64,000 bases of DNA, taken from positions 6,407 to 70,406 of the forward strand of contig CAYLPS010000004.1 in NCBI GenBank assembly GCA_964385625.1, written 5' to 3'. Made by a program: the position numbers and the translations under genes. Positions within the stretch are counted from its first letter, which is position 1, and every line of letters starts with the position of its first letter. Below the pieces are notes generated by a model, which made no database searches, was not told the DNA's origin, and saw nothing but the letters and a program-made list of their open reading frames with translations. The stretch is from an uncultured Anaerolineaceae bacterium. Its GTDB lineage: Bacteria > Chloroflexota > Anaerolineae > Anaerolineales > UBA4823. This document shows, one piece after another, positions 12,270-34,807 of the stretch.

Positions 12270-12330
12270 GTTATAACAAAACAAACACAGATCCTGGAAC
12301 CTGTACCTGGATTCAAATTATCAGCAACCC

Positions 12331-14929: not shown

Positions 14930-14933
14930 TGGA

Positions 14934-18541: not shown

Positions 18542-18544
18542 ACG

Positions 18545-20254
18545 ATGCTAACGGACCCCAAACTTCGCAGCCAGGTTGATTCTCTGTGGGACAAGTTCTG
18601 GTCAGGCGGCCTGACGAACCCCCTCGACGCCATCGAGCAGTTTTCTTACCTGCTTTTTCTCAAACGCATGGACGACGCCGAAAGCAGGCGCGAGAAACTG
18701 GCCAAGAAGCTGGGGCAAGCTTACACTCCTGGCCTGGCGCCAGATCTGCGTTGGGGCTATTGGACAAACCTGAAGGCTGATGAAGCGCTGCGCCACCTGA
18801 AAGAAGTGATCTTCCCCGATCTGCGCAAGCTGGGTGCAGCCGGCAGCTCGTTTGAGCGTTACATGGCCAACGCTGAATGCAAGATCAGCAAACCATCCTT
18901 GCTCATCGAAGCCTGTAAGCTGATTGACCAGATGGAAATCAGCCAGCAGAACCAGGATGTGCAGGGCGATCTATATGAATACCTGCTCAGCAAGCTCAAC
19001 ACTGCCGGCCGCAACGGCCAGTTCCGCACGCCGCGCCATATCATCCGCATGATGGTGCAGATGTTGGCGCCGCAGCCGATGGAGCGCATCGGCGACCTGG
19101 CCGGCGGCACCTGCGGTTTTCCGGTCAATGCGCACCAGTATATTTTGGAGACTCACACCTCGCCTGAGATTTTGGAATATGACGAGGCTGGCCTGCCGCA
19201 CAACTTGATTGGCGATTTGCTCAAGCCGGAAGAACGCACTTTCATGGCTTCCGCCAGGTACTTGCGCGCCTTCGATAATGACGCCGGCATGACCATGCTG
19301 CGGATCGGCTCCATGAACTTGATCTTGCATGGGATCGAATCGCCGCAGTTTTTTTACATGGACACGCTCTCCAAAGCCTTCATCGACGAGCGCGAGTACG
19401 ATGTGATCCTGATGAATCCGCCTTTCAAGGGAGCGGTGGACAAAGGCGATGTCAACCCCAGCCTGCCCGGCGACACGACCAAGACTGAGCTGCTCTTCCT
19501 GCACCTGATCCTGCGCGCCCTGGACATGGGTGGGCGCTGTGCGGTGATTGTGCCGGACGGGGTGTTGTTTGGCTCCAGCAAGGCGCATGTGGCGCTGCGT
19601 AAAAAGATCATTGAGGAAAACCGCCTGGACGGGGTCGTTTCCATGCCTCCGGGCGTGTTCAGGCCCTATGCCGGGGTTTCAACGGCCATTCTGTTCTTCA
19701 CCCGCGGCGCCAAAACTGAGCGTATCTGGTTCTATGACATGGCGCATGATGGGTTTTCGCTGGACGACAAGCGCCTGCCTGTGGGGGAGAACGATATTCC
19801 AGATGTACTGCTGTGCTGGCAGAAGCGCGGCGACAATGCCTTCCAGCAAGCCCGTCAGCAGCGATTGGACGAACTCAAAGCCCAGGTTGCGCCGCTGAAG
19901 GTCGAGCAATTGAGTCTGCACGCTGAGATCAACCGCCTGACCTTCGAACAGGCCATTGCCCCAGAGGGAGATAGCCCGTTGACGGCTGAACTGGCCGCAG
20001 CACAAGCCCGTCTTGTCGACCTTGATGCCCACATTGCCCCCTTGCAGGCCGAAATGGATCAACTCTCGCGCCAGTTCTGGGTTAACAAAGCTCAGGTCAA
20101 GGCCAACAAGTATGATTTGTCCACCAGCCGCTATCGTCAATTTGAGATAGACGAAACATATTATGAGAAACCACAGATCACTCTAAAGCGTATGAGAAAA
20201 CTGGAGGAAATTTGTTTGGACACTCTGGATGAACTTCAGGATTACAGCAGATGA
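18545..20254 (+). CDS. hsdM: Type I R-M N6-adenine DNA methyltransferase subunit
   Basis: HsdM N-terminal domain, AdoMet motif DLAGGTCGF, catalytic NPPF (LMNPPFKG), and a C-terminal coiled coil. Confidence 0.9.
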   Translation: MLTDPKLRSQVDSLWDKFWSGGLTNPLDAIEQFSYLLFLKRMDDAESRREKLAKKLGQAYTPGLAPDLRWGYWTNLKADEALRHLKEVIFPDLRKLGAAGSSFERYMANAECKISKPSLLIEACKLIDQMEISQQNQDVQGDLYEYLLSKLNTAGRNGQFRTPRHIIRMMVQMLAPQPMERIGDLAGGTCGFPVNAHQYILETHTSPEILEYDEAGLPHNLIGDLLKPEERTFMASARYLRAFDNDAGMTMLRIGSMNLILHGIESPQFFYMDTLSKAFIDEREYDVILMNPPFKGAVDKGDVNPSLPGDTTKTELLFLHLILRALDMGGRCAVIVPDGVLFGSSKAHVALRKKIIEENRLDGVVSMPPGVFRPYAGVSTAILFFTRGAKTERIWFYDMAHDGFSLDDKRLPVGENDIPDVLLCWQKRGDNAFQQARQQRLDELKAQVAPLKVEQLSLHAEINRLTFEQAIAPEGDSPLTAELAAAQARLVDLDAHIAPLQAEMDQLSRQFWVNKAQVKANKYDLSTSRYRQFEIDETYYEKPQITLKRMRKLEEICLDTLDELQDYSR

Positions 20255-20784
20255 AAGAGGTCTCTCTTTCTGATGTCAGCCGAATTAACCCACCCAAGCG
20301 GGCTGGCTTATCACGTGATCTGTTGTGTTCATTCGTGCCCATGGAATATGTAGACGATATTTCAGGCACCATCACCCAGACATCAGTTCGTTCAGTTGGA
20401 GAAGTTGAAAAAGGATATACACCGTTTCTAAATGGCGATGTAATTTTTGCAAAAATTACACCTTGCATGGAAAATGGCAAATGTGCCATAGCCCAAGGAA
20501 TGATGAACGGCGTTGGTTTTGGCTCGACAGAATTTCATGTTCTGCGCGCAGAACATGATGTTCTGCCAGAGTGGATTTATTACTTCTTGCGCCAGGAAAA
20601 AATCAGACAACAAGCAGCGCGCTGGTTTCGTGGTACCGCTGGTCAGCAACGTGTTCCAAGCGACTTTCTCGATCAATTGAAGCTCCCCCTCCCAACTATT
20701 CCAGAACAGCGCCGCCTCGCCGCCATCCTGGCCAAAGCCGACCGCCTGCGCAGCCTGCGCCGTTACGCCAATGCGCTGGGATAG
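20251..20784 (+). CDS. hsdS: Type I R-M specificity subunit, proximal half (TRD1 + part of central conserved region), ends at in-frame TAG
   Basis: ATGA overlap with hsdM. TRD-like region followed by LPLPTIPEQRRLAAILAKADRLRSL. TAG at 20782-20784. Confidence 0.85.
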   Translation: MKEVSLSDVSRINPPKRAGLSRDLLCSFVPMEYVDDISGTITQTSVRSVGEVEKGYTPFLNGDVIFAKITPCMENGKCAIAQGMMNGVGFGSTEFHVLRAEHDVLPEWIYYFLRQEKIRQQAARWFRGTAGQQRVPSDFLDQLKLPLPTIPEQRRLAAILAKADRLRSLRRYANALG

Positions 20785-20805
20785 ACCTACCTGCAGTCTG
20801 TATTT

Positions 20806-21429
20806 ATGGAAATGTTTGGGAATGTTGCTATAAATCAAACGAAATGGGAAGTGGAGGCTTTGGTAAATTTATGCACCAATGTTACTGATGGAACACACGA
20901 TACACCAGAACGGGTGCCAGTAGGGGTGCCTTTTATCACATCAAAGAATATTCGACCTTATGAAATTGATTTAACAAATCTAGAATTTGTATCGATGGAA
21001 ACACATCAAGAAATCATAAAAAGGTGCAATCCTAAATCAGGTGATATTCTGTATACAAATATTGGTGTGAACGTGGGTAATGCTGTTGCAAATCGACTAG
21101 GTTTTTCCTTTAGCTTAAAAAACGTTGCCCTCTTCCAATTGAACACCGCAAAGCTAGACCCATACTATATGGAATCCCTTTTGAATAACCCCGGCTTCAA
21201 AGAAAGTAGGTTACAATTTTCTTCGGTTGGTGGGGCTCAAAAATTTATGTCGTTGGATGTATTACGAGAAATGCCAATACCTATCCCGCCACTTGATTTA
21301 CAAGAGCGCTTCGCTACTGTGGTGCAGTGTTACGAGCGCCTGCATTCCCAGCAGCGTGAGGCCAGTCGTCAGGCAGAGTTGCTGTTCCAGGGCCTGCTTG
21401 CCGATGCATTCAATATGTGTCAATATTAA
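20806..21429 (+). CDS. hsdS: Type I R-M specificity subunit, distal half (TRD2 + C-terminal conserved region)
   Basis: Same reading frame as 20251-20784. Begins inside the central conserved FxEMFG motif and ends PIPPLDLQERF...LLFQGLLADAF. AT-rich. Confidence 0.8.
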   Translation: MEMFGNVAINQTKWEVEALVNLCTNVTDGTHDTPERVPVGVPFITSKNIRPYEIDLTNLEFVSMETHQEIIKRCNPKSGDILYTNIGVNVGNAVANRLGFSFSLKNVALFQLNTAKLDPYYMESLLNNPGFKESRLQFSSVGGAQKFMSLDVLREMPIPIPPLDLQERFATVVQCYERLHSQQREASRQAELLFQGLLADAFNMCQY

Positions 21430-21435
21430 CCACCT

Positions 21436-21915
21436 ATGAATGAGAAAACCTTTCATTTAGCCATACGCTTCTCCGATAATTTATTTTCTATTGGGGATGT
21501 GGTGGTTAAACACAATGAAGTATTTTACCAAAAAGGATACGTGTGGTTTGGGAAGATGGGTCAAACGATCTCTCAAACCAGAATGGATTTATTGAATCGC
21601 CAAATTGCACAGAGTATTCCCACATTCGTTTACCTAGTAAAAGGCAATCGAAAAAAATCCACCTTCTATCGCGCGGACCTTATCGCCATTACCAAAGAAC
21701 TACCTATAGGCGAAGAAGTTGCAATTCCCAGTTATTACCAAAATAATAATCTTCTTCAATACATGAAAACATGGGTCAGAATTTCGGAAATTGTTGCAAT
21801 AGAAATATCAGTAATTTCACATTTGCAGGCAATTGGTTCAGTATTTCCACTTCAAGAAACCCTTATTAGAAGCTCGTCCGGATATTTTCTGGTTCGCGAG
21901 GCAAAAAATATTTAA
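21436..21915 (+). CDS. Hypothetical protein (159 aa)
   Basis: Starts 7 nt after the hsdS stop. AT-rich and beta-rich-looking sequence; no family recognised. Confidence 0.5.
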   Translation: MNEKTFHLAIRFSDNLFSIGDVVVKHNEVFYQKGYVWFGKMGQTISQTRMDLLNRQIAQSIPTFVYLVKGNRKKSTFYRADLIAITKELPIGEEVAIPSYYQNNNLLQYMKTWVRISEIVAIEISVISHLQAIGSVFPLQETLIRSSSGYFLVREAKNI

Positions 21916-21944
21916 CATTGAGAGCCTCGTTACCGCGAAGCGAA

Positions 21945-22064
21945 TTTCCATGGAGTACCATTCCTTTGTTGGAAGAAAACTTCCCAATGATGGCATCCCA
22001 GGTGCTACAGGCTAAAAAGCTAGTCCAAGGCCTCCTCAGCTCGGCATTTACGGGGGACATGTGA
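21945..22064 (+). pseudogene. Possible relic of an HsdS C-terminal conserved region
   Basis: Translates to FPWSTIPLLEENFPMMASQVLQAKKLVQGLLSSAFTGDM*, which parallels the genuine HsdS end (PIPPLDLQERF...LLFQGLLADAF). By-eye similarity only. Confidence 0.3.
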
Positions 22065-22744
22065 TTGCGTTTAAATACGGGCAGGTTGCCGAAAGTCAGG
22101 CCATCAACGCGTTCATTTACCTCTGTTTTGAGGAATTCGAAGAAAGCGCACAGCAAAAATTCGTCAAACTGTTTCGCCAACAGCCGTATGACCAGGCGCA
22201 GGTTATGCACACCTTTCGCGAATTGATCCTGGGCGCTTACTTGCATCGCGCTGGTTTTCGGGTGCTCTACGCGCAACATTTACAAGGCAAAACCCCGGAT
22301 TGGGTGATCGTAAACGAGCAATTGATTCCTCTGGCAATTGTAGAGTTGGTGAATTTTCATATTGATCGCCAGACGGAAATGGCCCTTCAAAAACAAAGCC
22401 AGACCAGGCCGGCAGTGGTGGGTTATTGGCGCGATGGGAATGTGGATAATATAGAGCGCCTGAGGTATCGCCTGCAAGAGAAGGCTCAGGTTTACCAGGA
22501 TTTAGTGACCAAGCTGGCCTATGTCATTGCAGTGTTTGGTGAGTTTGAGGCGGCATTAGATGTGGATGATATCGTGGCTTGTCTGAACGGAGAACGGGAG
22601 GGGCTGTTTGATCAATATCCGCATGTCAGTGGAGTGTTATTTTTCGACGAAAACGGCGGCAAGTACCGCTTTCAATATTTTGAGAACCCCGCCAATCCAC
22701 GAAAACTGGAAATACCTGCAGGAATATTTTCAAGAGGCTCTTGA
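22061..22744 (+). CDS. Hypothetical protein (227 aa, GTG start)
   Basis: ORF in the co-directional array. KTPDWVIV...(13 aa)...AIVELVN is reminiscent of a PD-(D/E)xK core but lacks the Lys. No family recognised. Confidence 0.5.
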   Translation: MIAFKYGQVAESQAINAFIYLCFEEFEESAQQKFVKLFRQQPYDQAQVMHTFRELILGAYLHRAGFRVLYAQHLQGKTPDWVIVNEQLIPLAIVELVNFHIDRQTEMALQKQSQTRPAVVGYWRDGNVDNIERLRYRLQEKAQVYQDLVTKLAYVIAVFGEFEAALDVDDIVACLNGEREGLFDQYPHVSGVLFFDENGGKYRFQYFENPANPRKLEIPAGIFSRGS

Positions 22745-22757
22745 TGCAAAGGAATGA

Positions 22758-23717
22758 ATGATGAGTCCAGAAGAACAAATCTCTTTTACTTTGATGGAAA
22801 ATGGCCTGGATTTTATCCTGCGATCGTTGGAGTATCTAACCGACGACCCAGACACTCGCTCTTTAAAATACGCTGTTCTCCATTTGCATTCTGGAATTGA
22901 GCTGATCCTAAAAGAGCGCTTGCGCAGGGAACACTGGGCGTTGGTCTTCGAGAAACCTGATGAAGCCAATATGGCCAAATACGAGGCGGGTGATTTCGTC
23001 AGTGTTCAATGGAAGACCTGCCTGAGCAGACTTCAAGGCATCTGCAAAGTTGATATACCAGAGGATCAGCGCAAATTATTAGAGGAACTCAAGAAAAAGC
23101 GAAACCGCCTTGAACATTTTGGTATTGTGGATACTGTTTTAGCGGTCAAAGGCTCGACAGTCCCGGTACTCGCGTTTGCATTAGATTTCATCAACGATGA
23201 AATTGGCATAGATCAGCTCTCGGAATCGGAGGTGGCTCTCTTGCAACAAATACGGAGAGCTTTGGGGAATTTCCAGGATTTCGTCTCGGAACGAACCAGA
23301 TCTATAGCAGCGCAATTGGACCCTTACGGCAAGAGCATTGTCACCTGCCCGCGCTGCATGCAGGATGCAATGGTTATTGATGATGGCGCTCTATGCTACT
23401 TTTGTGGTCACCGGCATGATGATATGGAAGCCGCTATTCAAGAATTTGTTCATGATGTGCTAGAAATTGATTGGCATACCGTCGCGCGGGGAGGGGAATG
23501 GCCAGTCTACACATGCCCAGGTTGTGGAATAGATACTCTGGTTGACTTGAAAGAAGCCGAACAAGAGGATAAGCCACGTTTCATTTGCTTTTATTGTGGT
23601 AATCACTGGGACTGGGGGCACTTAATCTTCTGCTCGAATTGCGGTCAGCCTTATGAGCCAAACGGGATGGCAGCTTGCGACGATTGTTTTGAATGGAGTT
23701 TGCGTCGAAACGATTGA
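22758..23717 (+). CDS. HEPN-like domain protein fused to three CxxC...CxxC zinc ribbons (319 aa)
   Basis: The helical N-terminal ~130 aa ends with R115-N-R-L-E-H120 (Rx4H with RN, nt 23100-23117). C-terminal half carries CPRC..CYFC, CPGC..CFYC and CSNC..CDDC. Confidence 0.6.
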   Translation: MMSPEEQISFTLMENGLDFILRSLEYLTDDPDTRSLKYAVLHLHSGIELILKERLRREHWALVFEKPDEANMAKYEAGDFVSVQWKTCLSRLQGICKVDIPEDQRKLLEELKKKRNRLEHFGIVDTVLAVKGSTVPVLAFALDFINDEIGIDQLSESEVALLQQIRRALGNFQDFVSERTRSIAAQLDPYGKSIVTCPRCMQDAMVIDDGALCYFCGHRHDDMEAAIQEFVHDVLEIDWHTVARGGEWPVYTCPGCGIDTLVDLKEAEQEDKPRFICFYCGNHWDWGHLIFCSNCGQPYEPNGMAACDDCFEWSLRRND

Positions 23718-24271
23718 TGAGCGCTTTAGATTCCTTACTCCACCAAGCCCTTCGCTCCACCTGGTCGAAAGCTCCCGGCGAGAAAGCACGCCGTTACATC
23801 GGCAAGTTCTATGCCCTGGAGCGGATCGGGGATCGGATCACCGGTAAGGTAGAAGGCAATCATGGCACCTATACTGTCTCAATCCGAGTAGATGATGGGC
23901 ATGTGTCATCCACCTGCGGATGCTATATTGGCAAGCATGGCTACTGTCACCACTGTGAAGCCCTGGCGCACACCTTTTTCCAAACTCCCGAAGCCTTTGT
24001 TGAAGTGATTTCAAAAGATAAGGCTGAACTCTCTGCATTGGGCGATCTGCCCGACTATATCAAGACCGCCACGTTGGAATCCCTGCTGGCTGAGTTGAAG
24101 GCCAAGGGCATCACCCAGAAAGCCTTTGCGGAAAGCATTGGCATGAACCCCCGTCATTTGACCGCCGTCAAATCCAGCGAGCTGCGCAACCATTACTTCA
24201 ACGAATTAGGGGCCCTCAAGCTGGCTTGCCTGTGGATGTTGGACCACATCAGCAATGAAAAAGACGCATAG
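23717..24271 (+). CDS. SWIM zinc-finger protein with C-terminal XRE-type HTH (184 aa from ATG 23717)
   Basis: CGCYIGKHGYCHH = CxCx7CxH SWIM motif. C-terminal GITQKAFAESIGMNPRHLTAVKS is an HTH. TGATG stop/start overlap with the upstream HEPN-like gene. Confidence 0.65.
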   Translation: MSALDSLLHQALRSTWSKAPGEKARRYIGKFYALERIGDRITGKVEGNHGTYTVSIRVDDGHVSSTCGCYIGKHGYCHHCEALAHTFFQTPEAFVEVISKDKAELSALGDLPDYIKTATLESLLAELKAKGITQKAFAESIGMNPRHLTAVKSSELRNHYFNELGALKLACLWMLDHISNEKDA

Positions 24272-24276
24272 CTCGC

Positions 24277-25770
24277 TCAGAGCGTATCCAACACCGTCCT
24301 GATTACATACTGTTTATCCCCAATCCGGTCAAAGAAGCACTCCTCAAGCGTGTTCGTGGCGATCAGGTAATGAGCCTGCGCCGGCTGCGCCAACAAGCCC
24401 TCGGCGCGCTGCTGGTCGGCGGGCGTGAAGCCCAGCTCCACAAACAACGCCTGGCGGGCCGGTGCGAGGTTCCAGCCACGGCTGTCGGCGCGGATGCTGA
24501 TGACGATGAGACGGCACGCCGAGTCGTTGGTAAAGCGCTCAATGGCTTTTGCCCGTTTGCGTTTTGTCGTTTCGCCGGTGATCCAGGGGGCCTGGAACGC
24601 GCCGGCAATGTCACCCACGATCTCGCGGTGATAGGCAAAAATCACCAGCTTGTCCGGTTTGTTTTTCAGAAACGCCCGGACCCAGGCGAGCGCGGCATCG
24701 AACTTGCCCCAGGCTAATTCCAGGCGCGGTGCGGTGTGCCAGCCCACCCAGTCGTCATCCTTCGAAGCCGCCACTTCCGTGGAGTTGTAATCCTCCCGGT
24801 TGTCAATGCGCACACGATGGTATTGGCGGGGCATCGTCTCCGGGTCCAGCCTGGGCCGGCGCAGCAGGCAGCGGGTGCGCAACAGCCGGCCAAGCTCGTC
24901 CAGGCGGGCGGCGCCGTTTTCTTGCCCCAGGCAGTAGCGCTGGAAGAAACCGGCGCGACCGCCGAATTTATCCAACCGCCCCATCACATTCAATTGGCTG
25001 ATCAGCTCCGCCGGGCCGTTGAGGATTGGGGTGGGCGTGAGCAGCAGCCGGTAGTGGATGCCCTGTGCCAGGGCCAGGGAGCGCCTGGTGCGCTGGGCAT
25101 CCCAACTCTTCACGTAATGCGCCTCGTCCAGGATCAGGCCATAAGGGCGGCGGTTCAAATGTTGGATCACGGCGCCAGCGGCATCCAGCGTTTCGTAGTT
25201 GACCAGCACCAGGTCGGCCGCCGCGTCCACGGCGGCGTCTTTGCAAGTGGGCAGCTTTTTACCGGGCAGGTATCGTTCGATGGCGCGATGCCAGGCCTGG
25301 CTGCGGTTCGCCGGGCAGACGATCCAGGCCGGAAAAGCATTGGCGGCTTGCACAGCGCCCAGGGCGATGGCCATCCGATCTTGCTCATCGTCATCGGCGA
25401 TAAAACAGCGCATGGCCTTGAGGGTATACTGCACGCCGGCAACTTGAAAAGGCGTCAGGCCTGGCAATGGTGACTTGAAGAGTGATTCGGGTTCCAGGGC
25501 GTGGCTGGCATCGTAACGGCTGCTTTCGAAACGTGCCATCAGCTCTTCTGCCGGCAGCTTGAAAGCAGGGTGCACGGCCATGCGATATTGATTGGCCAGC
25601 GACAGCACCGATTGAATAACACCGGGTGAAGGCCAGGCCAGCCAGCCGCGCTGCTGGTAAAAGTCAAAATGCGCGCTCGGGATACGCCGGACTGCGTTTC
25701 TGATAGCGTCATTCTTGGGGAAATCAATCACGATCTCCCCCGCTTGATCAAGATAAACTCTTCCAGGCAT
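24277..25770 (-). CDS. SNF2-family helicase-like protein with degenerate motif I
   Basis: Q-motif-like LTPFQVAGVQY, motif II LILDEAHYVK, and a helicase C-terminal domain. The GLGKT position reads DDDEQDRM. Confidence 0.75.
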   Translation of the reverse strand: MPGRVYLDQAGEIVIDFPKNDAIRNAVRRIPSAHFDFYQQRGWLAWPSPGVIQSVLSLANQYRMAVHPAFKLPAEELMARFESSRYDASHALEPESLFKSPLPGLTPFQVAGVQYTLKAMRCFIADDDEQDRMAIALGAVQAANAFPAWIVCPANRSQAWHRAIERYLPGKKLPTCKDAAVDAAADLVLVNYETLDAAGAVIQHLNRRPYGLILDEAHYVKSWDAQRTRRSLALAQGIHYRLLLTPTPILNGPAELISQLNVMGRLDKFGGRAGFFQRYCLGQENGAARLDELGRLLRTRCLLRRPRLDPETMPRQYHRVRIDNREDYNSTEVAASKDDDWVGWHTAPRLELAWGKFDAALAWVRAFLKNKPDKLVIFAYHREIVGDIAGAFQAPWITGETTKRKRAKAIERFTNDSACRLIVISIRADSRGWNLAPARQALFVELGFTPADQQRAEGLLAQPAQAHYLIATNTLEECFFDRIGDKQYVIRTVLDTL

Positions 25771-25772
25771 GC

Positions 25773-26714
25773 TTAATCCTCTAACTTGGCTACGGCTTCT
25801 TCCAGATCGCGCTCGCCAGGCGTGGTATAGATCCGGGTGGTGTTCAGACTGTTATGGCCGAGCAGCGCGGCGACTTTTTCAAGCGTTACGCCCTCATCCA
25901 GCAACGCCTTGGCAAAACTGTGCCTGAGCGTGTGGGGCGATACGTTTTGTAAGCCAGCGGCGGTCGCGGCGCGTTCCACAGCCCGCTGCACCGAGCGCAC
26001 ACCCACCCGCTCTCCCCGCTGGCCAATGAACAAAGCCTCGCCAGATCCTTCAGGCCGCACCGCCAACCACTCGTTCAGAAGCTGGCGCGCCGGGCCGTTC
26101 AAGGGAATAGAACGCTGTTTTTGACCCTTGCCGGAGCGCACCACCAGGCTGCCCTTGCGCTCGCCGATCTGCACATCGTTCAGTTGCAGGGCGCACAGCT
26201 CGCCAACACGCAAGCCGGTGTTCAGCAGCGTTAGCGCCATCGCGGCGTCCCGCAGGCGCATCACCCACAAGCGTGGGTAGCGCTGCCTGGCCAGGCGCAG
26301 ATCGTTTTCAACGGCCCGCACCAGCGCCGCCCGCTGGCGTTTGTCCAGCCATTTCGGGGCCAGGGGCACGCTTTCCACGTTGCGGATATTGAGCGCCGGG
26401 TTTTGGGTCAGCTTGCCGGTTTGGACTGCCCAGTGCCCGTAAGCGACCAACGCCGCCAGCTTGCGATTGATGGTGTGCGGCCGAGCGCCGGCTTCGCTCA
26501 GAGATTGACGATAGGCGCGCAGTTCACTCGCCGACCAGTCAAGCAGGCGAAACGGCTCGCCTTTGGCGTGGGCTGACCAGGCGGCATAGATACGGATGTC
26601 GCTGATATAACCACGGATAGTGACCGGAGAGCGATCTTGCTCGGTGAGGTACCCGGCAAAAGCCTGCAAGTCCAGGCCATCGTCATATTCGGTTAAGTGT
26701 GATGTAGTTGTCAT
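25773..26714 (-). CDS. Tyrosine recombinase (XerC/XerD-like)
   Basis: N-terminal SAM-like domain. Catalytic region has ARxxxxxLxxxGLRVGE, HTLRHSFA, LLGHNSLNTTRIYT. Confidence 0.9.
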   Translation of the reverse strand: MTTTSHLTEYDDGLDLQAFAGYLTEQDRSPVTIRGYISDIRIYAAWSAHAKGEPFRLLDWSASELRAYRQSLSEAGARPHTINRKLAALVAYGHWAVQTGKLTQNPALNIRNVESVPLAPKWLDKRQRAALVRAVENDLRLARQRYPRLWVMRLRDAAMALTLLNTGLRVGELCALQLNDVQIGERKGSLVVRSGKGQKQRSIPLNGPARQLLNEWLAVRPEGSGEALFIGQRGERVGVRSVQRAVERAATAAGLQNVSPHTLRHSFAKALLDEGVTLEKVAALLGHNSLNTTRIYTTPGERDLEEAVAKLED

Positions 26715-26738: not shown

Positions 26739-28205
26739 TTACCAAAACGGGGGTTTCTTCAATCCCAGGTGATGGGTTTCCGCAAAGAGTGCGCTTAACA
26801 CCCAGGCCAGGGATTTTTCCAGGATTTCGATTTCCTGCTTGCCCGGCACAACTTCGGTTTCTGCAGGCATCAGGATTTCGGGATCGGTGATCTCAACATT
26901 GACGCTCAGGCGGCGCGGGCCGCGCGTCTGGTAGTCAGGCGTGTAGGAATAAGCCAGCAGCGGGCCGTCGCTCTGCCAGCCGTGGTATTCCAGGAAGGCG
27001 TCAATCACCACCTGCATGCGGTGCAGGGCGGTGCTCTGGTTCCAATGGATGCGCCGGGCATCCATCTGGATGGTCTGCTCCACCAGTTGCAGCAGCCCAG
27101 GGTTCATGCGCAGGTAGTGGTACAGCAGGTACAGCGACTCGCGCGGCACGCCGCTGCGCGTCAAAGCCGCGGCGAAGGGATCGTGCGAAGCCAGGTAAAT
27201 GGTGCGCATAACGTACAGGAACTCGCTGTCCGCCTGCGGCTGGTTCGTATACAGTCCGTTTTGCTGCAGTTCCTGGTAAAGGGCGGCCAGGATCATGCGC
27301 CGTTCCGGGTTGGTGAACTGCGGCATCTCCTGGGCCACCTGGGCCAATGATTTGGCTTCACCTAAAGCAGTTGCCAGGGCTCCGGTGGCCGTCAAATCTA
27401 CCCAACGGCCTGCTGTCGGCTCGATCTCCCACTCCGGGTTGGCCAGGAACTCGCTCAACGGCAGCGCCAGCAGGCGGAACGGCAGCCGGCCATGCTTCTG
27501 GCGGGCGATTTCCACTGCCTGGCGCCAGGTGTTCAAGGTGCGCTGCCATTCTTTGCCGCGCGGCAGGTCAACCAGCATGCGCACCACCGGCGAGAACTCC
27601 TGCGCTGGCGAGCTGGCGTAAAAGGCAACCTTATGATCCAGGCTACGCAGGATCCGCTCTAGAAAATCTGAACGGGCGTCTTGCTCGGATTCGAAAATGG
27701 CTTTGGTCATATCCGCCAGCGTGACCAGGTTATCTGGGCGGATGTGGCCATCTTCGCCATAATCCAGGTTGCGGTCGGTGGTCACATTCAAACCAGCCGC
27801 CAGCGCCGCCAGGTGGACATCCAGCACACCCAGGGCATGCCGGATGGCCCGGGGCTCCTCAAGCTGGCAGGCGCGGGCGTTCGCGAGACCATCCAGCTTG
27901 CACAAGGCGGCGCCGCTTTCGCCCAGGCGATAAACGCGGGGCGCTGGGCCTGTCTGCCCCCCGCGTTTGAGCTTGCTGCTGTAGGTTGAGAAAAGCGGTG
28001 GGAACCCGGCGCTGGCCGCTTCCATTTTTTCCAACGTCCGGCGCAGGCGGTCGCGGTTCAGTCCGCTGGCCTGGGTCAGTTGTTTGTTATCGGCCACGCC
28101 GACGACTGCCTGCGTGTGCAGGATTTTGCGCCAGCCGTTGTTACGCACCTGGTTGTCCAGGGCTTCCTGTAGTTCCAGGATTCTTTCAGGGGAAAGAGAA
28201 CTCAT
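26739..28205 (-). CDS. Replication-relaxation-family-like protein (488 aa from ATG 28205)
   Basis: N-terminal winged-helix-like region, then HALGVLDVHLAL...IRPDNLVTL...AIFESEQD (H..D / PD / ExE pattern seen in Replic_Relax proteins). AAGGAG lies before the ATG at 28205. Assignment is tentative. Confidence 0.5.
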   Translation of the reverse strand: MSSLSPERILELQEALDNQVRNNGWRKILHTQAVVGVADNKQLTQASGLNRDRLRRTLEKMEAASAGFPPLFSTYSSKLKRGGQTGPAPRVYRLGESGAALCKLDGLANARACQLEEPRAIRHALGVLDVHLAALAAGLNVTTDRNLDYGEDGHIRPDNLVTLADMTKAIFESEQDARSDFLERILRSLDHKVAFYASSPAQEFSPVVRMLVDLPRGKEWQRTLNTWRQAVEIARQKHGRLPFRLLALPLSEFLANPEWEIEPTAGRWVDLTATGALATALGEAKSLAQVAQEMPQFTNPERRMILAALYQELQQNGLYTNQPQADSEFLYVMRTIYLASHDPFAAALTRSGVPRESLYLLYHYLRMNPGLLQLVEQTIQMDARRIHWNQSTALHRMQVVIDAFLEYHGWQSDGPLLAYSYTPDYQTRGPRRLSVNVEITDPEILMPAETEVVPGKQEIEILEKSLAWVLSALFAETHHLGLKKPPFW

Positions 28206-28262
28206 CCATAACTCCTTGCAAGGGTGAGGGTGACTGCGCGCCCTGTTGCGCACATTGGATGC

Positions 28263-28304
28263 TGCGCACATTGCTCGCGCACAGCCACCCTCTTAATATG
28301 CGCA
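28263..28304. repeat. Left copy of a 42-nt inverted repeat (partner 30360-30401)
   Basis: TGCGCACATTGCTCGCGCACAGCCACCCTCTTAATATGCGCA equals the reverse complement of 30360-30401 at 39/42 positions (20 nt perfect). It lies in a cluster of (T/C)GCGCA hexamers. Confidence 0.85.
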
Positions 28305-28369: not shown

Positions 28370-28921
28370 TCAGGCTTGATCCTCGGACGTTTCTGCGTCA
28401 GAGGGCTCGCTGGGCAGCGTGCTGCAGCCCAGGTGATCGAGCTGGATACGCTGCTTGGCGATAATGCTGTTCTGGGTAACGAAGGCTTGCTGCATTTCTC
28501 GCCTCTCATGCTGGCGAGCAGTTTGCTCAGCTTCCAGGGCGCGCCGAGTGGCGGCCAGGTCGCGTTCGGCTTTTTCGGCTCGTACGGTGAGATCGAGAAC
28601 TTGCTGCTGGGCCTGGCCCAGTTTTTGGCGCACTGGCTCATTGCGTAAGCGCTCGGTTTCCAGAAGCAGCCCTTCGATGCGGATTTCGGAAAACCGCAGG
28701 GCATGCTGCAAGTCCGTAATGCGGGTCTGCTGCTGACGCAAATGGTCAGCCAGTGCGATGCCAAACTCAGATAAGATGCTTTCGGGCGACTGGCCGCTCT
28801 CGATGGCTGAGGCATAGGTCGAGAAATCGCCAGATAAGCGCGCTTCCAGGCTGCGCAAGAAGCTGATGGCAGCCTGGCGGCGGATTTCATCAGGATTAGG
28901 GGGAGATGTGAACCAGGGCAC
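28370..28921 (-). CDS. Coiled-coil hypothetical protein (about 184 aa; GTG start at 28921 is a guess)
   Basis: Long heptad-like region (LRQQQTRITDLQHAL...AEKAERDLAATRRALEAEQTARQHE). The overlapping 215-aa frame is Ser/Pro/Ala/Arg-rich and was rejected. Confidence 0.5.
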   Translation of the reverse strand: MPWFTSPPNPDEIRRQAAISFLRSLEARLSGDFSTYASAIESGQSPESILSEFGIALADHLRQQQTRITDLQHALRFSEIRIEGLLLETERLRNEPVRQKLGQAQQQVLDLTVRAEKAERDLAATRRALEAEQTARQHERREMQQAFVTQNSIIAKQRIQLDHLGCSTLPSEPSDAETSEDQA

Positions 28922-28946
28922 GGTGATAACTCGATGAAGATGATGA

Positions 28947-29174
28947 CTAGCTCCACAGCTCGCCCAACGAATCCAGGATGGCGTTGGCCTCTTCCTGCTC
29001 GCTGAGCGGCTGGGGTTGGTTGGATAGCCCGCCGCGCATGGCGCGTAAGACTGCTGCTGCACGCTGGCGGGGCGGGACGGTCTCTAGAAAGCGGATGATG
29101 TCATCATCACGCCCCGGCACAAGCCATAATTTGAGCGGTACAACGACAACTTGAGAACGGCGGGGGCGAGCCAT
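28947..29174 (-). CDS. Small DNA-binding-like protein (75 aa), ParR-like by position
   Basis: Lies immediately downstream of the ParM-like gene. N-terminal basic stretch plus a beta-strand-like VVVVPLKLWLV followed by helices. Function inferred from gene order only. Confidence 0.4.
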   Translation of the reverse strand: MARPRRSQVVVVPLKLWLVPGRDDDIIRFLETVPPRQRAAAVLRAMRGGLSNQPQPLSEQEEANAILDSLGELWS

Positions 29175-29213: not shown

Positions 29214-30323
29214 TCATGCTACCTGTTTGGGCGCATCCAGCACCCCGGCGCGTTGGGCAAACTTGGCCAGGCCGCGGGCATTTGCAGTTACCAGTTCAGG
29301 CAGTTCGATGGCATTGGGGTAAGCCGAGCGCAGCCGCTCGCCCAGCGCCAAAATACCGCCGCCCGTGAGTAAGATATAGTCGAAGGCTTTGCCATCTTCC
29401 CAGGTTTGGGATAGATAAGCGCGCACTTCGCCGGCGGCAATATCCAACGCCTGGCGCGCCAGCGGTTTCAGGTCGAGCGCCTCGCCTTTGACCAGCAGTT
29501 CTGCCCGGTGGCCATTGCAGGCCAGGCGGACATATTCATCGGCCTCGTGCAGGCTGAAGCGCCGCCCGCCTTTTTGCAGCAGCAGGTCTTGCATGACCTT
29601 GGCAGCCCGGCGCTGGCCAAGCGTCTCGCCGCCGGTGTAGCGCCGGACGATCTGCCCACCGGCCAGGTGGAACAAATCGAGCGTGTTGAAACCCTGGTCG
29701 AGCACCGCTACCGAGGCTTTTAGATCGGCCGGTGAGCGCCCCCACTGGCCGTTGCTATTCAGCCCCCAGTCGAAGAAACTGCCGAGCGGCTGAGCCATGG
29801 CCTTGAGCGCCTGAATGTGCAGGTGAAAGGCCTGGCTGTTGAGGATGAAGTGATGATCGCCGATCAGCCAGGTTTCAAGCGCCTGCACCACGGTTTTCGC
29901 GTCTGGGCTTTGCAGCACCTGCACCGGCAGCGCCACGATCAGAGCCAACTCGATCAACGGCTCAAGTTCCACCTTGACGCCCAGGCGTAAGAGCAGCCTC
30001 CCCAAGGTGGTATAGAGCAGGGCGCGTAACTCGGGCGAGAAAGTCAGCCGGTCAAAGTCCAGGCGCTCGATGGGGCGGGCATACAGGTTAACGTGCTGAC
30101 CCACCAGGTGGCGCAGATCGTCCACGATGACCACATCGGGCATTTGCTTCTTCTGGCGGACCAGGCCAATACTCAACAGCCCGTTGTCAGTTTCACCCAC
30201 GCCCACAATGGCGGGAACCCGTTCGGTCACGATTTTATCTTCCCAAACGGCAGCGGCCTTGAAGGCGTAAAAGCCAACATCCACGGCGATTTTATAAGTG
30301 GAAGGTGTATTTTGAGATGTCAT
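29214..30323 (-). CDS. ParM/StbA-like actin-fold partition ATPase (369 aa from ATG 30323)
   Basis: Actin-fold motifs IAVDVGFYAFK, VAVLDQGFNTLD, ILLTGGG. AAGGAG lies 8 nt before the ATG at 30323; the longer ORF-track start was rejected. Confidence 0.8.
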   Translation of the reverse strand: MTSQNTPSTYKIAVDVGFYAFKAAAVWEDKIVTERVPAIVGVGETDNGLLSIGLVRQKKQMPDVVIVDDLRHLVGQHVNLYARPIERLDFDRLTFSPELRALLYTTLGRLLLRLGVKVELEPLIELALIVALPVQVLQSPDAKTVVQALETWLIGDHHFILNSQAFHLHIQALKAMAQPLGSFFDWGLNSNGQWGRSPADLKASVAVLDQGFNTLDLFHLAGGQIVRRYTGGETLGQRRAAKVMQDLLLQKGGRRFSLHEADEYVRLACNGHRAELLVKGEALDLKPLARQALDIAAGEVRAYLSQTWEDGKAFDYILLTGGGILALGERLRSAYPNAIELPELVTANARGLAKFAQRAGVLDAPKQVA

Positions 30324-30359
30324 GCAAAAGTCTCCTTGTCTGCGAGTGCGCAAATTCAT

Positions 30360-30401
30360 TGCGCATATTAAGAGGGTGGATGTGCGCGGGCAATATGCGC
30401 A
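30360..30401. repeat. Right copy of the 42-nt inverted repeat; contains a sigma70-like promoter facing the ParM-like gene
   Basis: On the minus strand: TTGCCC-17 nt-TAATAT, ending about 41 nt upstream of the ParM-like ATG. TGCGCA hexamers occur throughout 30346-30417. Confidence 0.8.
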
Positions 30402-30409
30402 CACAGAAA

Positions 30410-31777
30410 TCATGCGCATCCAGCCTGTACGGGTTCCTGTATGGGCAGGACTGCCCCTGTATGGGCATGTACGGCCTGTACGCCTGTATGCGCTACCCCG
30501 GCCAGGCGAGCCAATTCGAGGGTAATGCGGCGGGCGTCGGTGGCGTGTTGGGGTTTGGTCAGCCAGCTCCGGCGCTCGAATTGCTCGGCGATCTTCTGCA
30601 CCTGGTGGTGGCTGATCCCCTGCCCTGCCAGCGCCTGCGCCAGCCGATTGACGATGAAACGCCCTTCGAGCTGCTCCAGGGCATAAGCCACCAGCGCCCG
30701 CTCCACATCGCTCAAAGGGTTGAACTCTACCGGCTGAGCGGGGACAGCTTGCTCAGCCGTGAGGCGGTACGCCTGGAAAATGCTGTACTGACCGTTCATG
30801 AATAGGATGCCCCGCCCTGGCAAGCGCAGACTCAGCGCTTCTTTACCCCACCGGCGCGACCCCAACACGACCGCTGCCGAGGTATCGTCTGAAACGCGGA
30901 AGGAGATGCGCACCGGGATCATCGCCGAAAGCCCGCGCGGCACATCCTTTGCCCGCCAGTTGTGGCCGGCCAACACAACGGTCAAACCCCACTTGCGCCC
31001 GCGCCGCGCCAAGTCGGTGACCTGTTCCAAGATTTCCTTGTCGTCGAAGTAGGAGTTGGCCTCGTCAACGAACAGGATCAGGCGCGGCAGCGGCTCTTTG
31101 GCGATCTGGTTGTACTCGTCCAGATTAGTTGGCATTGCTCCGTTCTGAGCGGCTTCCTGGAACAGCGTCCGGCGCCGGGCCAGTTCAGCGTGAACCGCTC
31201 CCAACAGAACTTTGAACTCCTTAGCAGACTGAGCAACTGGGTAAGGGTTCTTGGGGTTGAGCACATCGGGGTTGAACGTGGTAGCGTCCGGGTCAACATA
31301 GAACCTGATCCAGCCATGTAGAGTTGCGGCGTAGTTCAGGCCTTCCAACAAGTTGCTCTTGCCCGAACCCGGCTCACCGCAGATCAGGGTGTTTTGCAGG
31401 GTCAACATGGCGAGCGGCCCAGACAGCCCGACGCCCAGGGGCAGCGAGTTTTTCTCGAACACACTGGGGTAGGGGATCATTTCGGGCAGCTTGGGAAGGG
31501 CACTGAGCAAGATCATGTAACGTAATCCTGTCGAGTTAGAGAGAAAAACTGGTTTACCGTGCAAGGCCGTACTCAGGTGATGCAGGGTTTCGCTGGAGAT
31601 GAAGCCTTCCAGCCGCCCTTCCATCTGGGTCAAGTTGAGCACCACAGCCAGCCAGACCAGGCCGTTGCGTTCGGTCAGGTAGAAGGTGACTGCCGCGTTC
31701 AGGTTGCGTTGTGCCAGGGTATGCACAATCAGCCGGGCGCAGTGCCTGGCTTCTGAGAAAAAGCGAGATCCGTTCAT
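30410..31777 (-). CDS. FtsK/SpoIIIE-family DNA translocase (TraB-like) with C-terminal winged helix
   Basis: Walker A GEPGSGKSNLL, Walker B LILFVDEANSYF, no N-terminal membrane spans, and a C-terminal wHTH-like region (IVNRLAQALAGQGISHHQVQKIAEQF). Confidence 0.85.
   Translation of the reverse strand: MNGSRFFSEARHCARLIVHTLAQRNLNAAVTFYLTERNGLVWLAVVLNLTQMEGRLEGFISSETLHHLSTALHGKPVFLSNSTGLRYMILLSALPKLPEMIPYPSVFEKNSLPLGVGLSGPLAMLTLQNTLICGEPGSGKSNLLEGLNYAATLHGWIRFYVDPDATTFNPDVLNPKNPYPVAQSAKEFKVLLGAVHAELARRRTLFQEAAQNGAMPTNLDEYNQIAKEPLPRLILFVDEANSYFDDKEILEQVTDLARRGRKWGLTVVLAGHNWRAKDVPRGLSAMIPVRISFRVSDDTSAAVVLGSRRWGKEALSLRLPGRGILFMNGQYSIFQAYRLTAEQAVPAQPVEFNPLSDVERALVAYALEQLEGRFIVNRLAQALAGQGISHHQVQKIAEQFERRSWLTKPQHATDARRITLELARLAGVAHTGVQAVHAHTGAVLPIQEPVQAGCA
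30424..30492. repeat. Iteron cluster CCTGTA(C/T)GG x5 plus one CATGTACGG
   Basis: Copies start at 30424, 30436, 30456, 30466, 30475 and 30483, inside the last ~25 codons of the TraB-like gene. Confidence 0.7.
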
Positions 31778-32799: not shown

Positions 32800-32809
32800 A
32801 CCGATCACT

Positions 32810-33226: not shown

Positions 33227-33250
33227 GATCGTGTCACTCGATAATGTTAC

Positions 33251-33308
33251 TTATTGTATAATACAATAGGTTTGGATATTAAAAATGCCTATTGTGGCAT
33301 ACAATAGG
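33251..33308. promoter_or_regulatory. Second pair of palindromic operator-like sites (TTATTGTAT-a-ATACAATAG; CCTATTGT-ggcat-ACAATAGG)
   Basis: Located at 33251-33269 and 33288-33308, directly upstream of the transfer operon start (33226). Shares 24/25 nt with 12248-12272. Confidence 0.55.
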
Positions 33309-33334
33309 ATAGCATAATCTCACCATTTGGTCAA

Positions 33335-34787: not shown

Positions 34788-34807
34788 TAAGACACGCGAA
34801 CTGCGTG

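What the first reader, a model, noticed from the sequence alone, without database searches (positions are those of the whole stretch)
24277..26714. SNF2-like protein with a destroyed Walker A, in one operon with a tyrosine recombinase and converging on the SWIM gene
Where SNF2 ATPases carry ..ADEMGLGKT.., this ORF reads FIADDDEQDRMAIAL (aa 123-137, about nt 25360-25402), with no Gly-Lys-Thr. Motif II is intact (LILDEAHYVK). The motif VI region reads TPADQQRAEGLLAQPAQ rather than the usual Q..R..R.GQ arginine pattern. The recombinase stop (25773) is 2 nt from the SNF2-like start (25770), so the likely operon is rep-relax-like gene -> xerC-like -> SNF2-like. SWIM fingers are classically associated with bacterial SNF2 ATPases. 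Here the SWIM/HTH gene ends 5 nt from the SNF2-like stop on the opposite strand. An ATPase-dead SNF2 scaffold linked to a recombinase is unusual.
Basis: partly seen in the sequence, partly recalled or inferred. Interest (0 to 1): 0.55.

Follow-up and report, generated by a model that had tools for sequence, protein, structure and literature searches.

The report
Dead SNF2 helicase in mobile element
This gene encodes a conserved, selectively maintained copy of a phage-type DNA-remodelling helicase that has lost its ATP-using motifs and travels beside a site-specific recombinase in mobile, defence-carrying elements of Chloroflexota, so it probably acts as a passive DNA-binding helper, not a motor.

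Summary
ORF 24277-25770(-) is a 497-aa SNF2-fold protein. Its P-loop reads EQDRM instead of GLGKT, both motif VI arginines are lost, and motifs III and V are eroded. No Walker A occurs elsewhere in the protein.

It is not a decaying pseudogene. The same losses occur in relatives at 88-93%, 53%, 43% and 28% identity, which group together in an NJ tree. dN/dS is 0.12-0.20, like the neighbouring genes.

The active relatives (~30% identity) are phage helicases with HARP repeats, like SMARCAL1. The N-terminus here is HARP-like (HHalign 93%).

Wherever the flank on that side is visible, dead copies adjoin a Xer-like tyrosine recombinase and lie at most one gene from a Replic_Relax-like protein. The host is a family of Anaerolineae/Chloroflexota mobile elements with variable defence cargo downstream.

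The gene is facultative: sister elements with similar recombinases lack it.

The SWIM/HTH gene is cargo. It is absent from three of the other four lineages whose flanks can be read.

The most likely role is ATP-independent binding of branched DNA, assisting the neighbouring DNA-processing enzymes. This is an inference and is unproven.

The parts
24277..25770 (-). Catalytically dead HARP-SNF2 protein (497 aa), the subject of the finding
   Evidence: Pfam SNF2-rel_dom 1.6e-13. AF2 pLDDT 85, and Foldseek hits to SNF2 cores at E~1e-18. dN/dS 0.12-0.20.
25564..25764 (-). N-terminal HARP-like domain (aa 3-69), predicted beta-beta-alpha-beta-beta-alpha
   Evidence: HHalign against the HARP repeats of active relatives: probability 93%, E 3e-7. 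Those repeats pass the Pfam HARP cut-off in P0007 and P0010.
25360..25404 (-). Degenerate motif I: FIADDDEQDRMAIAL, with EQDRM in place of GLGKT
   Evidence: D131 is invariant in the dead clade.
25108..25137 (-). Motif II LILDEAHYVK. DEAH is kept in this subclade only.
25015..25047 (-). Motif III region LLLTPTPILNG (TGTP changed to TPTP)
24466..24498 (-). Motif V region SIRADSRGWNL (eroded)
24376..24426 (-). Degenerate motif VI TPADQQRAEGLLAQPAQ. Both arginines and the Q are replaced.
25773..26714 (-). XerC/XerD-like tyrosine recombinase (313 aa). The sequence strings GLRVGE (aa 167), GKGQKQR (195), HTLRHS (261), LLGH (284) and RIYT (294) are present, and I read them as carrying the catalytic R-K-H-R-H-Y residues.
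   Evidence: Phage_integrase 4e-37. XerC model 199 bits, below the 335 cut-off. Sequence strings located; the assignment to catalytic residues is my own reading.
26739..28271 (-). Replic_Relax-like wHTH + PD-(D/E)xK protein. The likely true start is the ATG at 28205 (488 aa).
   Evidence: Homologues carry PF13814. Invariant RPD...ExEQ. AF2 pLDDT 87, with weak Foldseek hits to wHTH and PD-(D/E)xK nucleases.
28370..29062 (-). Conserved backbone protein of unknown function (183-230 aa)
   Evidence: 81-84% identical in L002 and L007. No family hit.
28947..29174 (-). Conserved 75-aa backbone protein that follows the actin-like gene in all relatives
29214..30419 (-). ParM/ALP actin-like segregation protein
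   Evidence: ALP_N 2e-9, MreB-like_C 1e-6. ParM/PRTRC-D.
30410..31777 (-). FtsK/SpoIIIE-like P-loop ATPase
31774..33226 (-). First two genes of the backbone string (138 aa and 385 aa). I read the 385-aa translation as having a signal-peptide/transmembrane character.
   Evidence: translations. 91-93% identical in L002. The signal/TM character is my reading of the sequence, not a prediction tool.
33248..33334 (-). Pair of CCTATTGT-N5-ACAATAGG palindromes overlapping the only sigma70-like matches in the 10-kb region. Probable promoter/operator of the string that ends with the dead SNF2.
   Evidence: The same pair is in L002.
12211..12272 (-). Second copy of the palindrome pair, upstream of the 124-aa / DUF3987 / primase / serine recombinase string
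13473..24271 (+). Opposite-strand defence cargo: AbiEi/Eii, type I R-M with DUF6615 and a Pua-like gene, a 227-aa protein, a PDC-S64 candidate, and the SWIM/HTH gene (23693-24271)
   Evidence: The cargo differs in L002, L001 and L007.
6521..12170 (-). Left part of the island: large serine recombinase, primase zinc-ribbon protein, DUF3987 helicase-like protein, 124-aa protein
34807..34880 (-). tRNA-Glu at the right border of the island. An HTH_17 gene lies at 34497-34700.

Best explanation
Shown: the ORF encodes a descendant of phage-type HARP-SNF2 (SMARCAL1-like) annealing helicases. It keeps the HARP-like domain and the two-lobe SNF2 fold but has lost the residues for ATP binding and hydrolysis (motifs I and VI, partly III and V). 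This dead state is ancestral to a small, deep clade kept under purifying selection. The clade is found in a family of Anaerolineae/Chloroflexota integrative, plasmid-like elements. There the gene always adjoins a Xer-like tyrosine recombinase and lies at most one gene from a Replic_Relax-type (wHTH + PD-(D/E)xK) protein, at the junction between the element backbone and its variable defence cargo. Inferred: it no longer acts as a motor. It works as an ATP-independent binder of branched DNA (ss/ds junction, fork or four-way junction). It would be made together with the recombinase and would help assemble, stabilise or bias the nucleoprotein complexes in which the recombinase and/or the Replic_Relax protein process the element's DNA (excision/integration, multimer resolution or origin/oriT opening). 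It is a facultative enhancer, not an obligatory subunit.
For: Loss of motifs. All six P-loop positions and Q/D/R/H/R/I/G of motif VI are changed, while 79 of 115 columns that are >=80% conserved in 155 active relatives are kept. No Walker A lies elsewhere. The fold is intact: AF2 pLDDT 85, SNF2 cores at E~1e-18. The HARP-like N-terminus scores HHalign 93%, E 3e-7. The same losses occur at 88-93%, 53%, 43% and 28% identity, with a clade-specific invariant D131 and conserved DRMAIAL and RAEGLL strings. The dead set is monophyletic in an NJ tree of 166 sequences. dN/dS is 0.12-0.20 against 0.07-0.15 for neighbours. Synteny: the gene is adjacent to the recombinase in window, L002, L003, L007, L010 and L001, even though the order is inverted in L001. 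The Replic_Relax-like gene is immediately upstream in L001, L009 and L011, and one gene away in the others. The junction to the recombinase is 2 nt with a GAGGA upstream. The only promoter-like sites lie at the head of the 9-kb gene string. Established knowledge: SMARCAL1-type HARP-SNF2 enzymes recognise ss/ds junctions and branched DNA, and tyrosine recombinases pass through a four-way junction.
Against: There is no direct evidence of DNA binding or of contact with either neighbour. The gene is dispensable for the module: elements with Replic_Relax-like proteins 65-80% identical to the window's, and with recombinases 73-76% identical to those of L007 and L001, lack it. The dead SNF2 tolerates partner recombinases only 54% identical to each other while itself staying 88% identical, so a tight co-evolving interface is unlikely. 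In relatives, the position after the recombinase is otherwise filled by toxin-antitoxin pairs or helicase-primase genes. That position is therefore an accessory slot and does not by itself indicate function. The number of independent lineages is small (about five).
Confidence: 0.4

Rival explanations
1. Conflict gene. The dead helicase is part of the element's accessory or defence load. As a non-motor mimic of phage HARP-SNF2 replication helicases, it binds phage forks or phage partner proteins and poisons phage replication, or it acts as a decoy against a host defence.
For: The closest active relatives are phage genes (phrog_62 at 7.7e-44). The gene sits at the backbone/cargo boundary, where defence genes and TA pairs lie in all relatives. 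It is facultative in the element family.
Against: It is on the backbone strand and tightly joined to the recombinase (2-nt junction with a GAGGA upstream). In L001, L009 and L011 it lies inside the core module, between the Replic_Relax-like gene and the recombinase. The cargo around it turns over completely while it stays. PADLOC gives only generic SNF2 hits.
Confidence: 0.2
2. Replication accessory. It works with the Replic_Relax-like initiator as a loader or adaptor at the element's origin (for example holding the opened origin for DnaB, DUF3987 or AAA_25 helicases) and has nothing to do with the recombinase.
For: It is directly downstream of the Replic_Relax-like gene in L001, L009 and L011. 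In sister elements the equivalent position carries helicase-primase pairs. Its ancestry is in phage replication modules.
Against: Adjacency to the recombinase is the invariant feature, not adjacency to the Replic_Relax-like gene. Every element examined already has a bona fide helicase.
Confidence: 0.2
3. Decaying pseudogene: a broken SNF2 helicase on its way out.
For: Several catalytic motifs are destroyed. Two copies look fragmented: L010 is split into P0039 and P0172, and L008 has an apparent frameshift.
Against: The 497-codon frame is intact. dN/dS is 0.12-0.20. The same substitutions are shared across 28-93% identity, with new clade-specific conserved residues. In L010 many other genes are fragmented too, which may mean assembly errors or general decay of that copy.
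Confidence: 0.03
4. Still an ATPase, using a non-canonical nucleotide site (R132 replacing the lysine, with DEAH intact).
For: Motif II (DEAH) and the Q-motif glutamine are kept in the window subclade, and K-to-R at the P-loop position is conservative.
Against: The second P-loop glycine is an invariant Asp and the Mg-binding Thr is Met. Both motif VI arginines are gone. Sister lineages have also lost motif II: DDSH and DECT.
Confidence: 0.05
5. Two-component SWIM + SNF2 system. The convergent SWIM/HTH protein supplies the zinc finger that bacterial SNF2 enzymes usually carry in cis.
For: The SWIM motif CxCx7CxH is present. There is a weak hit to the N-terminus of DpdE (E 0.005). Only 5 nt separate the two stop codons.
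Against: The SWIM gene overlaps and is co-oriented with the PDC-S64 candidate in the cargo operon. It is absent from L007, L001 and L010, which all have the dead SNF2.
Confidence: 0.03

Closest known systems
SMARCAL1/HARP-type annealing helicases and their phage homologues (annotated 'DNA helicase' in Arthrobacter, Caulobacter and Rhodothermus phages)
   Same: Same architecture of HARP-like domain(s) followed by an SNF2 two-lobe core. Full-length alignment at 25-34% identity. 69% of the family's highly conserved columns are retained.
   Different: Only one HARP-like unit and no N-terminal extension. Motifs I and VI are destroyed and III and V eroded. The helical insertion after motif III/IV is shortened. 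It is encoded in an integrative element beside a recombinase, not in a phage replication module.
Sulfolobus solfataricus Rad54-like SWI2/SNF2 core (PDB 1z63) and eukaryotic remodeller cores (Mot1, ISWI, CSB)
   Same: Best sequence and fold matches among solved structures.
   Different: All of those are active ATPases with GxGKT and the motif VI arginines.
Accessory factors that activate or direct tyrosine recombinases without using energy themselves (FtsK gamma domain for XerD; Xis/RDF proteins). This is a functional analogy from established knowledge.
   Same: A DNA-binding partner encoded beside, or acting on, a Xer-type recombinase. Gene adjacency is conserved.
   Different: No homology to these factors. 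No interaction has been shown here. The recombinase type also occurs without this protein.
Replic_Relax / MOBC-type PD-(D/E)xK relaxase-replication proteins (PF13814; PMC3424549, PMC5357655). This is the closest family for the upstream neighbour.
   Same: wHTH plus PD-(D/E)xK-like core with invariant RPD...ExEQ. Homologues are annotated with PF13814.
   Different: About 490 aa, with a large extra C-terminal helical domain. The window protein itself does not reach the Pfam model.
Dehalococcoides IME1 elements (bioRxiv 10.64898/2026.09.15.751708)
   Same: Chloroflexota-restricted elements of about 21-28 kb next to a tRNA, with a XerCD-type recombinase, a P-loop packaging/FtsK-like ATPase preceded by membrane proteins, a serine recombinase and a primase-helicase.
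   Different: In IME1 the recombinase is the first gene. No ParM, Replic_Relax-like or SNF2 gene is reported there. Homology between the two element families was not tested.
Gamma-Mobile-Trio islands (bioRxiv 10.1101/2023.03.28.534373)
   Same: A small conserved mobility module that includes a tyrosine recombinase and a DNA-binding accessory protein, and carries variable defence cargo.
   Different: GMT has two recombinases plus a StbA-like protein and occurs in Gammaproteobacteria. The only sequence link is a weak hit of the recombinase to GmtY (2e-10, far below the cut-off).

Membership tests
SNF2 family (PF00176 + PF00271) | Two RecA-like lobes with SNF2-type sequence and fold | tested here: met
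   Pfam 50.8 bits against a cut-off of 24.9, and Helicase_C 23.8 against 23.5. Foldseek E~1e-18 to Mot1, ISWI, CSB and SsoRad54.
SNF2 family (as an ATPase) | Walker A GxGK[ST] (motif I) | tested here: not met
   EQDRM aligns to GLGKT. No GK[ST] occurs anywhere.
SNF2 family (as an ATPase) | Motif II DExH | tested here: met
   DEAH at aa 215-218. It is lost in the clade members P0005 (DDSH) and P0104 (DECT).
SNF2 family (as an ATPase) | Motif VI Q..R..R.GQ arginine fingers | tested here: not met
   R changed to L and R changed to Q, and the conserved Q changed to R.
SNF2 family (as an ATPase) | DNA-dependent ATP hydrolysis | not testable with these tools
   Needs purified protein. The motif status predicts no hydrolysis.
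HARP-SNF2 (SMARCAL1-like) annealing helicases | HARP domain N-terminal to the ATPase core | tested here: met
   Profile-profile match to the HARP repeats of relatives: 93%, E 3e-7. Those repeats pass Pfam HARP in P0007 (26.4 bits) and P0010 (25.5 bits) against a cut-off of 25. Pfam HARP does not hit the window protein directly, so the match is indirect.
HARP-SNF2 (SMARCAL1-like) annealing helicases | ATP-driven strand annealing / fork remodelling | not testable with these tools
   Loss of motifs I and VI argues against it.
XerC/XerD (neighbouring recombinase) | Tyrosine recombinase fold and catalytic R-K-H-R-H-Y | tested here: met
   Phage_integrase 4e-37. The sequence strings that I read as carrying the catalytic residues were located.
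XerC/XerD (neighbouring recombinase) | Score above the NCBIfam equivalog cut-off | tested here: not met
   XerC 199 bits against 335; XerD 174 against 330. It is Xer-like, not XerC or XerD.
Replic_Relax / MOBC (upstream neighbour) | Match to PF13814 | tested here: inconclusive
   The window protein and six relatives give no hit. Homologues at 38-44% identity carry a precomputed PF13814 hit, which is 'faint' in L015.
Replic_Relax / MOBC (upstream neighbour) | HTH fused to a PD-(D/E)xK core | tested here: inconclusive
   Invariant RPD...ExEQ. Foldseek gives wHTH (CzrA/MarR) and PD-(D/E)xK nuclease hits, but with low TM-scores and E>=2e-3 in PDB. Hits to ~275-aa Bacillus phage proteins reach 7e-9.
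SWIM-associated SNF2 systems | SWIM finger fused to, or consistently encoded with, the SNF2 protein | tested here: not met
   The SWIM gene is present only in window, L002 and L003. It is absent in L001, L007 and L010.
Dehalococcoides IME1 elements | The published criteria: tRNA-adjacent; first CDS a XerCD recombinase; a large CDS with a putative metallophosphoesterase domain; primase-helicase; terminal Cro/C1 repressor; about 23 kb | tested here: not met
   tRNA-Glu and a primase/DUF3987 pair are present. But the recombinase is internal, the terminal gene is HTH_17, and the island is about 28 kb. The metallophosphoesterase criterion was not examined.

The most novel reading that the evidence does not exclude
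A phage annealing helicase was domesticated by a Chloroflexota mobile-element lineage into an ATP-independent protein that recognises four-way junctions or forks. This protein would license or direct the neighbouring Xer-like recombinase. It would be a new class of recombination cofactor or directionality factor, possibly involved in the rapid turnover of defence cargo that always lies directly downstream.
Probability: 0.2. Interest if true: 0.75.

Novelty: new variant of a known kind. Interest (0 to 1): 0.52.

Why it matters
Conserved pseudo-enzymes derived from helicases are rarely documented in prokaryotic mobile elements. I found no description of an ATPase-dead bacterial SNF2 clade. If the protein is a passive junction or fork binder that assists a tyrosine recombinase or a PD-(D/E)xK initiator, it would show how a motor protein can be turned into an architectural factor. 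It would also provide a natural 'binding-only' SMARCAL1-like protein, useful for separating substrate recognition from translocation. Finally, it helps define a previously undescribed family of Anaerolineae elements (ParM/ParA, FtsK-like ATPase, Replic_Relax-like protein, Xer-like recombinase) that act as carriers of R-M, BREX, Abi and STAND defence cargo.

Tried and rejected
1. attL/attR search. No repeat of the tRNA-Glu 3' end was found. Only an 11-nt match (CCTTGAAAGGG) lies at the left island border, and it does not extend. The element ends and the recombinase's target therefore remain undefined.

2. The paired palindromes at 12.2 kb and 33.3 kb were considered as att sites. They overlap the only promoter-like matches, and each sits just upstream of a minus-strand gene string (also in L002 and L010). 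I therefore read them as operators. The first genes downstream of the two copies are unrelated.

3. Integron-like cassette capture by the recombinase. The R-M cassette swap between the window and L002 is bounded by AbiEii and a remnant of the hsdS 3' end, which points to homologous recombination and not to attC-like sites.

4. Sequence searches for the 510-aa neighbour in Pfam, PHROGs, NCBIfam, PADLOC, PDB sequences and plasmids gave nothing.

5. No dead-type copies were found in the phage or plasmid collections or in IMG/VR.

6. The context of P0104, the most divergent dead member, could not be retrieved, because it is not in the collection that allows look-ups.

7. P0005 did not appear in the representative library's top hits, so clade size cannot be estimated from that search.

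Full report
OBSERVATION. ORF 24277..25770 on the minus strand encodes 497 aa. FIADDDEQDRMAIAL is aa 123-137 (nt 25360-25404). LILDEAHYVK is aa 212-221. TPADQQRAEGLLAQPAQ is aa 449-465. Pfam recognises an SNF2-related domain (1.6e-13) and Helicase_C (5.5e-5). The best solved relatives are SsoRad54, Mot1 and ISWI. An AlphaFold model (pLDDT 85) matches SNF2 cores at E~1e-18. The recombinase stop is 2 nt from the SNF2-like ATG, with a GAGGA just upstream, and the SWIM/HTH ORF ends 5 nt from the SNF2-like stop.

WHICH MOTIFS ARE LOST. I aligned the protein with 155 active relatives. E129-Q130-D131-R132-M133 falls on G-L-G-K-T. The motif VI Q, D, R, H, R, I and G are all replaced, with the two arginines becoming L and Q. 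Motif III TGTP is TPTP, and several motif V positions are changed. By contrast, 79 of the 115 columns that are >=80% conserved in the active proteins are retained. These include the PFQ..GV.Y block, motif Ia (CP...W), DEAH, T.TPI.N.P.EL, FGG..F..RYC, LR..C..RR and the motif IV histidine. No G-x(0-2)-K-[ST] occurs anywhere in this protein or its dead relatives. A displaced P-loop is therefore excluded.

NOT A PSEUDOGENE. The same losses are present in P0001-P0003 (88-93% identity), P0039 (53%), P0005 (43%) and P0104 (28%). These proteins share new clade-specific conservation: an invariant Asp in place of the second P-loop glycine, and the strings DRMAIAL and RAEGLL. In an NJ tree of 166 family members the dead proteins form one clade. 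Long-branch effects for P0104 cannot be excluded. Motif II has decayed further in P0005 (DDSH) and P0104 (DECT), as expected once catalysis is no longer under selection. Between the window and its orthologues in L002 and L007, dN/dS is 0.12-0.20. This is in the range of the flanking recombinase, Replic_Relax-like, ParM-like and FtsK-like genes, which give 0.07-0.15.

ANCESTRY. The active relatives (~30% identity, 630-850 aa) carry GLGKT and DR.HRIGQ. They lie in phage-like contigs with DNA polymerase A, SSB, Thy1, WhiB and methylases. They match phrog_62 'DNA helicase' and the helicases of Arthrobacter, Caulobacter and Rhodothermus phages. Several pass the Pfam HARP model. The first 70 residues of the dead clade match those HARP repeats profile-to-profile (93%, E 3e-7) and are predicted as beta-beta-alpha-beta-beta-alpha. 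The protein is thus a single-HARP, motor-dead derivative of phage SMARCAL1-like annealing helicases.

CONTEXT. Related DNA comes from Chloroflexota/Anaerolineaceae MAGs. In the window the gene ends a 9-kb minus-strand string: 138 aa, 385 aa, FtsK-like ATPase, ParM-like actin, 75 aa, ~183-230 aa, Replic_Relax-like protein, Xer-like recombinase, dead SNF2. The only sigma70-like matches in this stretch lie at its head, on a pair of CCTATTGT-N5-ACAATAGG palindromes. The ~490-aa neighbour has no direct family hit. Its homologues at 38-44% identity carry PF13814, and it has an invariant RPD...ExEQ. Its model resembles wHTH plus PD-(D/E)xK proteins. PF13814 is the Replic_Relax/MOBC family (PMC3424549, PMC5357655).

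The whole island spans roughly 6.4-34.8 kb, between a B12-binding gene and tRNA-Glu. It also holds a large serine recombinase, a primase and a DUF3987 protein behind a second copy of the palindromes. The plus-strand block 13473-24271 is defence cargo: AbiE, type I R-M, a PDC-S64 candidate and the SWIM/HTH gene.

SYNTENY OF THE DEAD CLADE. The dead SNF2 is immediately next to a tyrosine recombinase in every locus whose flank on that side is visible. The order is recombinase -> SNF2 in window, L002, L003, L007 and L010, and SNF2 -> recombinase in L001. The Replic_Relax-like gene is directly upstream in L001, L009 and L011, and one gene away elsewhere. Downstream, the cargo differs completely between loci. 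L002 and L003 carry an MmeI-type R-M. L001 carries BREX (PglZ/BrxL). L007 carries a PLD nuclease, methylases, an Mrr-ATPase and a pPIWI-associated nuclease.

However, the gene is facultative. Elements with Replic_Relax-like proteins 65-80% identical to the window's, and with recombinases 73-76% identical to those of L007 and L001, have something else at that position. They carry toxin-antitoxin pairs (DUF3368, or Gp49 + HTH) or helicase-primase pairs (AAA_25 or DUF3987 with a DnaG zinc ribbon), again followed by opposite-strand NACHT, NB-ARC or BREX cargo. The dead SNF2 also coexists with two recombinase types that are only 54% identical.

SWIM. The 192-aa protein has a CxCx7CxH motif and an HTH. 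Its gene overlaps the PDC-S64 candidate gene in the cargo operon. It is absent from L001, L007 and L010. The convergence with the SNF2 gene is therefore an accident of cargo placement.

MECHANISM. Shown: an intact SNF2 + HARP fold without ATP-binding or hydrolysis residues; purifying selection; and conserved adjacency to a Xer-like recombinase and a PD-(D/E)xK/wHTH protein. Inferred: the protein retains what HARP-SNF2 enzymes do before they burn ATP, namely recognition of ss/ds junctions and branched DNA. It would use this to help the neighbouring enzymes build or bias their nucleoprotein complexes (four-way junction intermediates, an opened origin or oriT). I give this reading 0.4. It is lowered by the gene's dispensability and by its tolerance of divergent recombinases.

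Rivals and their weights are as follows. Phage-helicase mimic used in conflict: 0.2. Replication accessory of the Replic_Relax-like initiator: 0.2. Residual non-canonical ATPase: 0.05. Pseudogene: 0.03. SWIM-partnered system: 0.03.

COMPARISON AND NOVELTY. By fold and ancestry the protein belongs to the SNF2/HARP lineage. It fails the defining catalytic features, so it should not be filed as an SNF2 ATPase or an annealing helicase. The literature searches found no description of a dead bacterial SNF2 clade or of this element family. Dehalococcoides IME1 elements and GMT islands are conceptual neighbours only. I rate it a new variant of a known kind. The interest is moderate: it is a clean, evolutionarily validated pseudo-helicase with a testable role, but it is rare, confined to uncultured Anaerolineae, and has no functional evidence.

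DEAD ENDS. The att sites were not found. The palindromes are read as operators, not att sites. Cargo exchange looks like homologous recombination at hsdS remnants, not cassette capture. Sequence-only searches for the 510-aa protein gave nothing. The context of P0104 was not retrievable.

Noticed in passing
window 14934-22064; L002 13723-19014: The restriction-modification cassette differs between otherwise 88% identical elements: type I HsdR/M/S + DUF6615 + Pua-like here, MmeI-type in L002. The right breakpoint (22008) falls on a remnant of an HsdS C-terminus (QAKKLVQGLLSSAFTGDM*), and a similar remnant is in L002. This suggests cassette exchange by homologous recombination at hsdS 3' ends.
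   Followed up: partly
window 20251-20784 and 20806-21429: hsdS is split into two ORFs of 177 and 207 aa, 22 nt apart. This could mean half-size specificity subunits or an interrupted gene.
   Followed up: no
window 22758-23717: The 319-aa protein with C-terminal zinc ribbons matches the PADLOC candidate defence family PDC-S64 (2e-31) and HEC-08/DUF3644. Its gene overlaps the start of the SWIM/HTH gene by 25 nt, and a conserved 227-aa gene precedes it.
   Followed up: partly
window 12211-12272, 33248-33310 (and a weaker copy at 34705-34729); L002 2462-2516; L010 2671-2687: Paired 17-bp palindromes TATTGT-N5-ACAATA, 37-38 bp apart, at the heads of two backbone gene strings 21 kb apart. There are 4 copies against 0.01 expected. 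They overlap promoter-like sites. The cognate repressor was not identified.
   Followed up: partly
proteins P0034, P0046, P0081, P0135, P0165 (not in the window): A separate group of long (~920-1070 aa) family members has D(D/N)FVTHNT in place of DEMGLGKT. Motif VI is fully intact in P0034, P0135 and P0165 and partly altered in P0046 and P0081. This looks like a second, independent P-loop variant.
   Followed up: no
window 6521-8308 (-), 6364-6374, 34840-34850: A large serine recombinase sits at the left edge of the island. An 11-nt match to the tRNA-Glu anticodon arm lies between it and the flanking B12-binding gene. This is too short to call an att site. Which of the two recombinases integrates the island is unresolved.
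   Followed up: partly
L008 and L018 (same MAG, CAZVRZ01); L010: One Anaerolineaceae MAG carries both a dead-SNF2 copy with an apparent frameshift (L008) and a sister element without the gene (L018). In L010 the dead SNF2, the recombinase and GmrSD are all fragmented, which may reflect assembly errors or a decaying copy.
   Followed up: no
L012-L014, L020-L021, L015, and the P0191 contig: The five sister element lineages without the dead SNF2 in which that stretch is visible (L012-14, the P0191 contig, L015, L020/21; not visible in L018/19 and L022) carry a small PDDEXK_3 protein near the Replic_Relax-like gene. The dead-SNF2 elements examined (window, L002, L001) do not. This is a possible complementary distribution, based on very few lineages.
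   Followed up: no
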